64,000 nucleotides of DNA from the NCBI RefSeq assembly GCF_006345805.1, contig NC_043010.1, positions 53,258,001 through 53,322,000 on the forward strand, read 5' to 3'. How positions within the stretch are numbered: the stretch's first letter is position 1; each line of letters starts with the position of its first letter. Made by a program: the position numbers and the translations under genes. Shown here in pieces: positions 50,712 through 61,345 of the stretch. This stretch comes from Octopus sinensis (lineage: Eukaryota). The notes under the pieces were generated by a model. That model saw nothing but the letters and a program-made list of their open reading frames with translations. It ran no database searches and had not been told where the DNA came from.

Positions 50712-50960
50712 TAATGGCTGTGTGGTAGGAAGCTTGCCTCCCAACCACATGCTTCGATATTCAGTCCCACTGCGTGGCACCTTGGGCAAGTGTCTTCTAT
50801 TATATTCTCTAGCCTACGAAAATGAGTGGATTTTGTAGACGGAAATTAGAAGGCTTCGATATTCAGTCCCACTGCGTGGCACCTTGGGCAAGTGTCTTCT
50901 ATTATATTCTCTAGCCTACGAAAATGAGTGGATTTTGTAGACGGAAATTAGAAGGAGCCA
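50712..50960 (+). mobile_element. SINE family A 5' part with internal tandem duplication; 3' part resumes at ~51220-51430
   Basis: GCTTCGATATTCAGTCCCAC..GGAAATTAGAAGG occurs twice. Confidence 0.85.
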
Positions 50961-51021: not shown

Positions 51022-51026
<5 letters not shown>

Positions 51027-51168
51027 GTGAATATAATATGTGACAATGATTCGGTACCCAAGATAAAACTCTGAGTTTTGGATAACGAGGTGGAAATACA
51101 CACCGCCATGTCTTCAGTTTACATAATATTGAGATCTCTTTCTTTCTTTTGTTATCTTACCATTTTTA

Positions 51169-51172
<4 letters not shown>
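51022..51172 (-). mobile_element. Short hammerhead-bearing element (family of 59770-60836) inserted in the internal (TA)n of a SINE A
   Basis: ATCTGT.AAT.TAATATGTGACAAT.ATTCGGTA.. matches 60181-60280; inverted tail TTTTGTTATCTTACCATTTTTACCAA. Confidence 0.75.
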
Positions 51173-59199: not shown

Positions 59200-59769
59200 C
59201 ATATACGTGTGCCTGTGCGTACGTATGTATTTATCTGTATATGGATATGTACATGTATTTATAAAACTATATAATATATATATATATAAATTATAATATA
59301 CAGGTTCTATAGAATTCAAGCAGCGTATATATATATATATATATTGTGTGTGTGTGTGTTTGTATGAATGTACGTATATATGCTTATCTATTTATATTTT
59401 GCCAATTCTAGAGAGATTTAGACTCGGACACACTTGATTAAACGACCGACACAATTGTTTATAATGAAACATTTGATTAAATCGACCCAAGATCTTGACT
59501 CTTGTACATATTTTATTACTTTCGGGGTGATAAAATATAAAGCCATGTCCAGTGTGCCTTGAACTCTTAGCGTAAAGGTCTCTAACTAATTTCTATAAAA
59601 TATCTGTACTCTGTCACTTTTACTAGATTTCCCGCTTACCTACTTATAGGGCCCCCGTGGTGGTGTGTGCGCCTGTAAATACAACTACACAAACACGCAC
59701 ACACATACACACACACACATATATATATTATATATATATATAATAATATATATATATATATATATATAT

Positions 59770-60836
59770 ATTGATATAATAGTAAGACAACAAAAAATAT
59801 ATATATTGATAAAAATGGAAAGACAACAATGTGTAGGTATGCACATGCGCGCTTACACGAATACTAAGAACTTTTTTACCTCCTTATTTTACTCCCTCCC
59901 CTCACGTAGCAGTCATTCAAATAGCTCTTTTGTCTTAATATCCGTCAGCCATATAGTCATTACCCTTTGTATAATGGTCATTTCTCATAGCATTTTTCCG
60001 ATGGCCGGATAACTGAAGAGATGGCGCCGTGGGTTTCCACCTCGGCATCCGAAACTCGGACTCTTATCATGGCTACCGAATAATTGTCACATATTACATT
60101 TACAGATATATATATATATATATATTGATAAAAACGGTAAGATAACAAAAGACCTCGATATCATGTAAATAGAGGAATTTATCTGTAAATGTAATATGTG
60201 ACAATTATTCGGTAGCCATGATAAAACTCCGAGTTTCTGATGCCGATGTGGTAATCCACGTAGACATCTCTTCATTTATCCGGCTATCGGAAAAACACAA
60301 TAAAAAATGACCGTTATACAAAGGGAAATTACTGTGTGATTGACCGTTATGAAGACAAAAGAGCTATTCGAATGACCGCTAAGTAAGGGAGTAAAGTAAG
60401 GAGGTAAAAAGTCCATAGTATTCGCGTAAGCGCGCCTGTTCATACCTGCACATGTGCGCCCGCACACACACGTGCGTGCGCATATATTCATCCACCCTCA
60501 CTTGAAACACGTACGCATCCTCACTCGCATCCTTCGCCAAATGTATATGCATATACATATAAACCCACACAAACACGCGCACCATAAAGGTTCATACACA
60601 CGGTGCGCGCGTGTGTGTGTGTTTGTTTATATGTATAGGCATATACATTTGGCGAAGGATGCGAGTGAGCATGTGTACGTATTTCAAGTGAGAGTGGATG
60701 AATATATGCACACGCACGTATGTGTGCGGGCGCACATGTGTAGGTATGAACAGGCGCGCTTACGCGAATACTATGAACTATTTAGCCCCTTATTTAGCGG
60801 TCATTCGAATAGCTCTTTTGTCTAAATCACGGTCAA
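59770..60836. mobile_element. Two head-to-head hammerhead-bearing foldback elements (Penelope-like inverted terminal-repeat structure)
   Basis: 59829-60108 is inverted relative to 60181-60453, and 60340-60583 to 60602-60836; hammerheads at 60008-60068 (+) and 60280-60220 (-). Confidence 0.75.
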
Positions 60837-60837
60837 T

Positions 60838-61345
60838 TCATGGGGTACCCATTTTCCAGGTTTAGGAAACTTTCCAAGTTGTTGAAGATGACCATGAACG
60901 GTTGTATGGTTTGAACTAAGCTTTATTGCCAATTCTTCATCTGATAATGCAGGATTTTCTTCAAGTAATGCTTCAAGGAGCTTAACATCAAACTCAACTG
61001 GACACCTTGTTCGATCTTCATCATCAAGGTTGAAATCTCCACTTCTGAATTTTGCAAACCATCTGCAAATTCTTTCAATGAAGCATTCTTTACCATAAAC
61101 TTCCGAGTCGCTTCGGCTGCAGAGTTTCCTTTTTTGTACTCATAAAGCATTATGTACCTCAAATGTTAGAAAGGGTTTTAATCAAAAACTTTTGATTCTA
61201 TTATTCCGTAAAATAATATTTGATTAGTATAAATGTACACAAATGCATAACAATTTTTAATTCCATTAGACATTCTAAAATACTACTAAATTTCATACAA
61301 TTATAAAAAAGGCAAAATCGGACAGAACTTATGGGATGACCGGAT
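60838..61345 (-). mobile_element. Mariner element 5' half (HTH region) with TIR
   Basis: LRYIMLYEYKKGNSAAEATR..RWFAKFRSGDFNLDDEDR..LGKFPKPGKWVPH; TIR ..AAAATCGGACAGAACTTATGGGATGACC. Confidence 0.9.

What the first reader, a model, noticed from the sequence alone, without database searches (positions are those of the whole stretch)
59770..60836. Nested double palindrome showing an 'inverted arm + tail' insertion architecture
Taking the sense end as ...hammerhead...TTTACAGAT + tail (...TTTTGTTATCTTACCGTTTTTATCAA)-(TA)n: copy 1 (59770-60108) is truncated antisense tail + sense body stopping at ACAGAT. Copy 2 (60125-60836) is antisense tail + body followed by an inverted partial copy, ending at a mariner fragment. 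The independent insertion at 51022-51172 has the same layout as copy 1 and the same stop point. This resembles the inverted, truncated pseudo-LTR with 3' tail known for Penelope-like elements. The consensus hammerhead GATAA-CTGAAGA-GATG..CATC-C-GAAACTCGGAGTY-TTATC has a perfect 5-bp stem I, and the two copies carry different core or stem lesions.
Basis: partly seen in the sequence, partly recalled or inferred. Interest (0 to 1): 0.72.

Follow-up and report, generated by a model that had tools for sequence, protein, structure and literature searches.

The report
Penelope-like retroelement stubs in TA repeat
The mirrored repeats are worn, cut-short copies of a very abundant Penelope-like jumping gene lying in a TA microsatellite, each made of one arm with and one arm without a short tail, a known footprint that likely arises because both strands of the cut target are copied from the element's RNA.

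Summary

The repeat is the 3' end (pseudo-LTR) of an autonomous Penelope-like element (PLE). [quoted passage not shown] Its motifs match the published Hydra clade of PLEs, but it is a different and far more abundant family than the published Hydra-1_Obim.

Across the genome the outer ends are fixed at two sites. Site A is ..ACAGAT, with 649 exact junctions to (AT)n. Site B lies about 55-65 nt further on, at ..TTTTTATCAA; 1103 copies read on from site A into the tail that ends there.

Every classifiable head-to-head pair joins one tail-bearing arm to one tail-less arm: 27 of 27, 14 of 14 and 19 of 20. The inner breakpoints vary.

The hammerhead-like motif resembles published Hydra-clade hammerheads. 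It is damaged in all three window copies. In the youngest subfamily it carries C at core position 4 in 41 of 41 instances.

This is a known kind of element and footprint, and this scan has met it before on other DNA. Interest is low to moderate.

The parts
59700..59770 (.). (CA)n/(TA)n microsatellite, the left flank of the insertion site
   Evidence: sequence
59771..59797 (-). 27-nt tail-only fragment (antisense end of the tail, ..ATCAA), flanked by TA repeats
   Evidence: sequence; compared with tail ends
59806..59829 (-). Insertion A, tail-bearing arm, only 24 nt long (site B end)
   Evidence: sequence; same layout as L053 and L061
59829..60108 (+). Insertion A, tail-less arm (ref 2473-2738), ending at ACAGAT (site A)
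   Evidence: 81% over 280 nt, E 9e-74
60007..60069 (+). Hammerhead-like motif of copy 1, with stem III lesion (AGT>ACT)
60109..60124 (.). (AT)8 left between the two insertions
   Evidence: sequence
60125..60602 (-). Insertion B, tail-bearing arm (ref 2322-2802); the tail is about 60125-60180
   Evidence: 85% over 489 nt, E 7e-158
60220..60281 (-). Hammerhead-like motif of copy 2, with C3>A and C>A before GAAA
60607..60837 (+). Insertion B, second arm (ref 2344-2579), head-to-head with the first; its 3' part is missing, so its end type cannot be read
60822..61165 (-). Frameshifted N-terminal fragment of a mariner-type transposase that abuts the cut arm
   Evidence: HTH_48, E 2e-08
51022..51119 (-). 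Separate insertion, tail-less arm (ref 2641-2738) with hammerhead-like motif (GAAA>AAAA)
51118..51172 (+). Separate insertion, tail-bearing arm (ref 2749-2802), flanked by (TA)n

Best explanation
These are old, 5'-truncated insertions of a high-copy Penelope-like retroelement of the Hydra clade in a (TA)n microsatellite, and each was likely made by reverse transcription primed on both strands of the cut target.

Shown:
- Copies end at one of two fixed sites. Site A is ..ACAGAT. Site B is about 55-65 nt further on, at ..TTTTTATCAA.
- The stretch between the two sites is the 'tail'. In full-length copies with an upstream pseudo-LTR it runs straight on into the 5' UTR and ORF.
- Inverted pairs lie head to head, abut directly, and always combine one site-B arm with one site-A arm.
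- Both ends lie next to TA repeats.

Inferred:
- The endonuclease cuts the TA repeat.
- The two freed 3' ends are each extended by RT on element RNA, one from each start site. Both sites sit on the same word ATA|AAT of the template.
- The two cDNAs stop at variable points and are joined head to head.

The hammerhead-like motif is a relic of the clade's pseudo-LTR ribozyme. It is likely inactive in the window copies.
For: Family and coding capacity:
- The own-genome DNA search gave 2614 first-look candidates; the 40 scored gave 44 matches, and copies elsewhere in the genome are 83-89% identical to the query.
- Homology runs upstream into RT and EN remnants.
- The RT protein search gave 12824 first-look candidates, several with open frames up to 717 codons.
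- L108, L109 and L110 each hold a 717-codon frame.

Hydra-clade traits read in that frame, checked against section 11 of PMC8557442:
- RWK (IKRMRWK) and DKT (SDKTKN) are present.
- The linker is CxCX5C (CSCRNKELC); CxxC (CGLC) and CxH (CPH) are present.
- There is no Cys inside the GIY-YIG core.
- The unit is about 2.6 kb and targets (TA)n.
- The ORF is collinear with the Hydra-1_Obim protein printed in the supplement (compared by eye only).

Fixed 3' ends:
- 27 of 30 top loci end with the tail, 2 at ACAGAT and 1 elsewhere; 28 of 30 are followed by TA repeats.
- Exact words: 649 for ACAGAT+(AT)n and 1103 for ACAGAT+tail, with 0 for the reversed controls.

The tail is internal to the unit: in L109 and L110 it continues into the 5' UTR and ATG. 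Of the 40 scored candidates, 16 matches read through the tail end.

Pair rule:
- 16 of 30 tail-less loci and 16 of 30 tailed loci have an abutting inverted partner. That is 27 distinct pairs, all tailed plus tail-less.
- On contig C1 all 14 close opposite-strand pairs are divergent tailed/tail-less, with no tailed/tailed, tail-less/tail-less or convergent pairs.
- Of 20 pairs chosen only by having the motif on both arms, 19 are tailed/tail-less and 1 is unreadable.

Other support:
- Arms of a pair share private variants at 36 of 1477 sites, against 284 of 42698 for unpaired arms (18 of the 24 pairs given had enough sites).
- Site A is followed by AAATTTCC and site B by TAAATCACC, so both lie on ATA|AAT.
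- In vitro, a Poseidon PLE cuts and extends both strands and starts RT at two adjacent internal sites that bound the tail (PMC11167929, text read).
Against: - No RNA or bench data bear on the mechanism. Only assembled contigs were available, and none spans the palindromes.
- The published in vitro work saw no difference in start site between top and bottom strand. The strict one-of-each rule seen here is therefore not explained by that work.
- The inner breakpoints of the two arms are only weakly related (Spearman 0.39, p 0.046, n 27; 0.23, p 0.27 without the two long pairs). Long young pairs have very different arm lengths. A coupled, single-pass synthesis is therefore not supported.
- Pfam does not recognise the ORF (0 families; GIY-YIG only E 0.028, below cut-off). 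PDB sequences give nothing. Clade placement rests on motifs and by-eye collinearity, not on a tree.
- Rfam finds no hammerhead.
- The second arm of insertion B lacks its 3' end, so the rule cannot be checked for that pair.
Confidence: 0.9

Rival explanations
1. The short copies belong to a non-coding 'retrozyme'-type element. That would be a protein-free hammerhead repeat that spreads through self-cleaved, circular RNA and merely borrows the PLE machinery.
For: Half of the unpaired short copies begin within about 35 nt upstream of the motif (14 of 28; read), giving units of about 120-180 nt. One same-strand tandem with 394-nt spacing exists (L075/L076). The abstract of 10.64898/2026.07.22.740005 derives vertebrate retrozymes from PLE pseudo-LTRs.
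Against: The same sequence is contiguous with RT and EN coding sequence in longer copies. Same-strand neighbours are rare: 2 of 16 close pairs on C1. 5' ends do not pile up at the predicted cleavage site (ref 2693/2694). The most abundant subfamily has a non-canonical core.
Confidence: 0.06
2. The palindromes are assembly artefacts, for example collapsed or chimeric joins of repeat copies at a microsatellite.
For: PLE inverted structures are known to trouble assemblies (PMC8557442, passage). No independent contig spans them here.
Against: The same layout, with the same fixed ends and directly abutting arms, recurs at dozens of sampled loci on several contigs. The arms of the inner pair differ at 9% of positions, as expected of aged real copies and not of a duplicated read.
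Confidence: 0.02
3. The inverted arms arose after insertion, by DNA-level fold-back, replication slippage or repair at a fragile TA repeat, and not during retrotransposition.
For: TA microsatellites and palindromes are unstable. Insertion B has clearly suffered a later deletion or rearrangement at the mariner junction.
Against: A post-insertion duplication would copy the tail as well. Yet the second arm lacks the tail in every classifiable pair, and it ends at one fixed site next to TA repeats.
Confidence: 0.02

Closest known systems
Hydra clade of C-terminal EN+ Penelope-like elements (Craig et al. 2021, PMC8557442), including Hydra-1_Obim of Octopus bimaculoides
   Same: [quoted passage not shown] RWK, DKT and CxCX5C motifs, and no CCHH. 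Insertion into (TA)n. A type I hammerhead motif about 100 nt from the 3' end with stem III ACTC-N-GAGT.
   Different: This is a different family. The protein is collinear with the supplement's Hydra-1_Obim protein but clearly diverged (by eye; not computed). Copy number is thousands, against 29 exact hits for the published family's motif word. The published entry is noted as 'no pLTR', whereas this family shows partial tandems. The motif has one unpaired nucleotide between stem II and GAAA and a 13-bp stem II.
PLE insertion footprint: inverted 5'-truncated copy plus one-sided 30-40-bp tail (Craig et al. 2021; Frangieh et al. 2024, PMC11167929)
   Same: Head-to-head inverted truncated copy, a tail at one end only, and two alternative 3' ends that bound the tail. 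The tail is internal to the tandem unit.
   Different: The tail here is longer (about 55-65 nt). Both ends share 3 nt (ATA) with the TA target, whereas the Anolis element started at a site not homologous to the cut DNA. The one-of-each rule is quantified here.
Animal non-LTR retrozymes (abstract of 10.64898/2026.07.22.740005; Cervera and de la Pena 2020, recalled and not read)
   Same: Short hammerhead-bearing repeats related to PLE pseudo-LTRs.
   Different: There are no long head-to-tail arrays here. The repeat is part of a coding element, and the motif is degenerate.

Membership tests
Penelope-like elements (EN+) | Single ORF with reverse transcriptase and GIY-YIG endonuclease | tested here: met
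   717-codon frames in L108-L110. They hold RT-like blocks (FDIVDFY.SI, MGSYDGA) and a GIY-YIG-like block (IIYEATV..YVGLTEGNFK.RFNNH). Pfam GIY-YIG is only E 0.028, below cut-off. Atlas neighbours carry GIY-YIG and RVT_1. Collinear by eye with the published Hydra-1_Obim protein.
Penelope-like elements (EN+) | Pseudo-LTRs formed by partial tandems | tested here: met
   L105, L112, L114, L116-L118 and L124-L125 show a truncated upstream copy running into a full unit.
Penelope-like elements (EN+) | Inverted 5'-truncated copy at the 5' side and a tail at one end only | tested here: met
   27 of 27, 14 of 14 and 19 of 20 pairs.
Hydra clade of PLEs | RWK present, DKG changed to DKT, linker CxCX5C, no CCHH in EN, length under 3 kb | tested here: met
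   Read in the translations against section 11 of PMC8557442.
Hydra clade of PLEs | Insertion into (TA)n | tested here: met
   28 of 30 loci; 649 exact ACAGAT+(AT)n junctions.
Hydra clade of PLEs | Placement within the clade in an RT/EN phylogeny | not tested
   Reference sequences are only in a paper's supplement and were not entered into tools.
Type I hammerhead ribozyme | Core CUGANGA .. GAAA, stem III closed by A15.1-U16.1, H17, open stem I | tested here: inconclusive
   The pattern is present in 22 of 44 sampled copies of the window's subfamily. It is broken in all three window copies. The young subfamily has C at position 4 in 41 of 41. There is one extra nucleotide between stem II and GAAA.
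Type I hammerhead ribozyme | Match to Rfam hammerhead covariance models | tested here: inconclusive
   No hit even at E<=10. The published-type Hydra-1_Obim motif in L161 is also missed, so the test is not sensitive for this clade.
Type I hammerhead ribozyme | Self-cleavage | not testable with these tools
   No raw RNA reads were served. Folding gives no three-way junction and z-scores of -0.27 to -2.7.
Animal non-LTR retrozymes | Head-to-tail arrays of short non-coding hammerhead units | tested here: not met
   2 same-strand neighbours among 16 close pairs on C1. The repeat is contiguous with an ORF.

The most novel reading that the evidence does not exclude
One integration complex primes the two strands of a cut TA repeat at two fixed places on the template. 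The places lie 55-65 nt apart and each sits on the word AUA|AAU. Every inverted insertion therefore carries exactly one tail. The ribozyme core is dispensable, because the youngest, ORF-intact subfamily spread with C in place of U4.
Probability: 0.3. Interest if true: 0.5.

Novelty: new member of a known kind. Interest (0 to 1): 0.27.

Why it matters
How Penelope-like elements integrate is still poorly understood. A genome with thousands of copies, two sharply defined 3' ends and a strict one-tailed/one-tail-less pairing gives a natural data set against which the two-start-site model from in vitro work can be checked. For annotation, it explains many hairpin-like 'miRNA' hits and fold-back repeats at TA microsatellites in this genome as retroelement stubs.

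Tried and rejected
- **Rfam.** The search at gathering score over the whole window and at E<=10 over the locus gave only spurious miRNA-hairpin matches caused by the palindromes. A copy with an intact core and a young full unit gave no hammerhead either. The control with the published-type motif was also negative, so these results say nothing either way.\n- **Folding.** Single-sequence folding of four copies gave no three-way junction and weak z-scores.\n- **Protein searches.** Pfam on the full ORF gave 0 families. PDB sequence search gave only chance-level hits.\n- **Sequencing runs.** No RNA holder was listed, and all 24 runs are kept as contigs. Laying 4 DNA runs gave only short repeat-derived pieces, none spanning a palindrome centre or the mariner junction. 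The assembly question stays open from reads.\n- **Snap-back model.** I considered one cDNA copied back on itself, which predicts equal inner breakpoints. It was rejected: breakpoints are only weakly related, and long young pairs differ by more than 1 kb.\n- **Trailing-polymerase model.** I considered that the tailed arm never extends further 5' than the tail-less arm. It was rejected: 6 of 27 short pairs and several long pairs break it.\n- **Compensatory changes.** A by-eye comparison of stem II between the two subfamilies (copies) found none.\n- **Failed calls.** Two paper look-ups failed on term syntax and were re-sent.\n- **Mis-set query.** One search was meant to start in the 5' UTR but used mis-set coordinates, so it queried the pseudo-LTR plus 44 nt of the 5' UTR. 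It was still useful.

Full report
**1. The observation**

The repeat finder reports inverted arms 59899-60125 / 60163-60389 (227 nt, 84%) and 60394-60580 / 60609-60795 (187 nt, 91%).

As a ruler I used a natural longer copy of the family: the reverse complement of L032, where ACAGAT ends at 2737-2738 and the tail ends at 2802. BLAST against it places the pieces as follows:
- 59829-60108 (+) = ref 2473-2738.
- 60126-60602 (-) = ref 2322-2802.
- 60607-60837 (+) = ref 2344-2579.
- At the second site, 51022-51119 (-) = ref 2641-2738, joined to 51118-51171 (+) = ref 2749-2802.

Two short antisense tail ends lie at 59771-59797 and 59806-59829. TA repeats adjoin every outer end. The sequence beyond 60837 is a frameshifted N-terminal piece of a mariner-type transposase (HTH_48, E 2e-08 and 0.0048 in two frames).

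The locus therefore holds two neighbouring insertions in one microsatellite:
- Insertion A is a 24-nt tailed arm plus a 280-nt tail-less arm.
- Insertion B is a roughly 480-nt tailed arm plus a second arm that has lost its 3' part at the mariner junction.

The outer palindrome is formed by arms of A and B facing each other across (AT)8. Only the inner palindrome is a true head-to-head pair.

**2. What the repeat is**

The 459-nt arm has thousands of relatives in the window's own 2.72-Gb genome. The search gave 2614 first-look candidates, and the 40 scored gave 44 matches; copies elsewhere in the genome are 83-89% identical to the query. Homology continues upstream through about 190-bp internal repeats into the end of an ORF, and in L032 and L034 into RT and endonuclease remnants.

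A search with a 286-aa RT piece gave 12824 first-look candidates and open frames up to 717 codons. Three fetched copies (L108-L110) each carry such a frame. Other copies are 94-99% identical to one of them, so a young subfamily exists.

Pfam does not recognise the ORF; GIY-YIG reaches only E 0.028 on the endonuclease piece. PDB sequences give nothing. Language-model neighbours are about 700-aa proteins of cnidarians, molluscs and arthropods carrying GIY-YIG, RVT_1, HTH_animal and DUF8422.

**3. Clade**

Section 11 of Craig et al. 2021 (PMC8557442, read whole) defines the Hydra clade by these traits:
- length under 3 kb, with a C-terminal GIY-YIG;
- RWK present, and DKT in place of DKG;
- a CxCX5C linker, with CxxC and CxH near the end;
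- no CCHH;
- (TA)n insertion and canonical hammerheads.

All of these are visible in the translations: IKRMRWK, SDKTKN, CSCRNKELC, CGLC, CPH, and no Cys in IIYEATV...RFNNH.

[quoted passage not shown] That protein is collinear with the present ORF but clearly diverged. I compared them by eye only and did not enter the published sequence into tools.

A 19-nt word of the published Hydra-1_Obim hammerhead occurs 29 times in this genome. The two core variants of the present family occur 2284 and 2930 times. This is a second, far more abundant Hydra-clade family.

PLEs as an order are already annotated in octopus repeat studies (PMC13282606, passages). I did not search curated repeat libraries, so the family may already be catalogued.

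**4. Ends and tail**

Of the 30 best loci, 27 end with ..CTTACCGTTTTTATCAA (site B), 2 end at ..TTTACAGAT (site A) and 1 elsewhere. TA repeats follow in 28 of the 30.

Exact words across the genome give 649 for ATTACATTTACAGAT+ATATATAT and 1103 for ATTACATTTACAGAT+AAATTCCT. The reversed controls give 0.

In full-length copies with an upstream pseudo-LTR (L109, L110), the sequence after site B continues as TAAATCACCTCC... into the 5' UTR and the ATG. Of the 40 scored candidates, 16 matches read through this junction.

The tail is therefore simply the part of the tandem unit that lies between two alternative 3' termini. This matches Frangieh et al. 2024 (PMC11167929; parts 1-2 of the text read). 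They found two adjacent internal RT start sites bounding the tail, and cleavage and extension of both target strands.

In the young subfamily site A is followed by AAATTTCC and site B by TAAATCACC. Both termini therefore sit on ATA|AAT. That hexamer occurs only two more times in the 2.85-kb unit. The three shared letters could pair with a TA-repeat primer; this is an inference.

**5. Pair architecture**

I took the first 30 tail-less and the first 30 tailed exact matches along contig C1. Sixteen of each have an inverted partner abutting their 5' end, with a gap of -13 to +12 nt. Five pairs appear in both sets, which leaves 27 distinct pairs. In all 27 one arm ends at ref 2734-2738 and the other within the tail (2754-2802 region). 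By eye, L053 adds a 26-nt tailed arm, and L041 and L062 have partners further away.

Using only the coordinates of exact words on C1 (37 tail-less, 86 tailed), all 14 close opposite-strand pairs are divergent and tailed/tail-less. Two same-strand tailed neighbours exist. There are no tailed/tailed, tail-less/tail-less or convergent pairs.

As a sample blind to end type, I fetched 20 divergent pairs chosen only because both arms keep the motif word: 13 of the C4 variant and 7 of the U4 variant. Nineteen are tailed/tail-less and one (L154) has both ends degraded.

If arms were drawn independently at the observed frequencies, mixed pairs would be under half. My estimate is about 0.42-0.47, from the counts.

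Inner breakpoints vary. Spearman rho is 0.39 (p 0.046, n 27), falling to 0.23 (p 0.27) without the two long pairs. Young long pairs have arms starting more than 1 kb apart.

Arms of a pair share minority variants at 36 of 1477 sites, against 284 of 42698 for arms of different pairs. Identity is 91.1% against 88.8% (18 of 24 pairs had at least 40 comparable sites). The two arms therefore come from the same or near-identical templates.

**6. Mechanism**

The ends, the pair rule, the tandem continuity and the TA target are shown. The following steps are inferred:
- The GIY-YIG endonuclease cuts the TA repeat.
- Both freed 3' ends prime reverse transcription of element RNA, one at site B and one at site A.
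- Each cDNA stops at its own point.
- The two are joined head to head.

The rule of exactly one of each is not explained by the published in vitro data, which saw no strand difference in start site. A fixed geometry of one dimeric complex on one template is my favoured reading, but it is untested. Two simpler alternatives were rejected on the breakpoint data: a snap-back copy, and a trailing second polymerase that cannot overtake the first.

**7. The hammerhead-like motif**

In the window's subfamily the majority reads GGATAA CTGAAGA [13-bp stem II with two mismatches, loop ATTT] C GAAA CTC-N-GAGT T TTATC.

The published Hydra-clade table shows the same build. The core is ctgaNga plus g or t, stem II follows, then c/t-gaa. 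Stem III is actc-N-gagt in several families, the cleavage nucleotide is t, a or c, and the motif lies about 100 nt from the 3' end.

The present motif differs in having an unpaired nucleotide only on the 3' side of stem II, and in having a long stem II.

Twenty-two of 44 sampled copies keep the core, a 3-bp stem III and H17. The three window copies are each damaged.

In the young subfamily, 41 of 41 instances have C at position 4 and T before GAAA. In the window's subfamily, 32 of 33 have T and C.

Rfam reports no hammerhead for any of these, but it also misses the published-type motif in L161, so that negative carries no weight. Folding is uninformative.

My reading is that this is a homologue of the clade's pseudo-LTR hammerhead. 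It is inactive in the window copies and probably impaired in the young subfamily. That U4 matters for catalysis is recalled knowledge and was not checked here. This fits reports that PLE spread does not need the ribozyme: Naiads lack it, and core mutants still insert in vitro.

**8. Verdict**

The kind of element and its footprint are in print, and earlier notes of this scan reached the same class on other DNA of this and other genomes.
- the identity of the family, a high-copy Hydra-clade PLE distinct from Hydra-1_Obim;
- counts for the two fixed ends;
- the strict tailed/tail-less pairing;
- the shared ATA|AAT word at both ends;
- the C4 core in the young subfamily.

Noticed in passing
window 50752-50955: Two head-to-tail copies of a ~102-nt unit (cttcgatattcagtcccactgcgtggcaccttgggcaagtgtcttct...), probably a SINE-like repeat, directly upstream of the TA microsatellite that holds the 51022 insertion.
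   Followed up: no
L108 4296-6446; L109 and L110 (reverse strand); L097-L107, L111-L140: A young subfamily of the same element: 717-codon open frames and copies 94-99% identical to one another. It is probably recently active. Its 3' UTR is about 740 nt shorter than in the window's subfamily.
   Followed up: partly
ref 2606-2640 of the family (equivalent to window about 59970-60005): Half of the unpaired short copies (14 of 28; read) begin within about 35 nt just upstream of stem I of the motif. [quoted passage not shown] It is unexplained.
   Followed up: partly
L161 1490-1650 (G000:C1:117059600 region) and 28 further places: The published Hydra-1_Obim-type hammerhead word is present 29 times. 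In L161 the element ends about 115 nt downstream of the motif at a TA repeat, and the stretch before that end resembles the start of the published consensus. That family too therefore looks circularly permuted, with a tail.
   Followed up: partly
window 60025-60264 and 60519-60670: At relaxed thresholds the palindromes draw strong-looking but spurious Rfam miRNA-precursor matches (MIR2630 83.9 bits, mir-5014 68.9 bits). This is a likely source of false miRNA calls in this genome.
   Followed up: yes
L158 (G000:C1:68273553-68274704): Two tailed ends face each other across a (TA)n/(GA)n tract with mirrored flanks, next to a normal tailed/tail-less pair. This is a larger palindrome that includes target sequence.
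   Followed up: no
L019 3' flank: Repeated ..ATCAA(TA)n.. words inside the microsatellite downstream of a tailed end. Like the tail-only pieces at window 59771-59829, these may be abortive starts at site B.
   Followed up: no
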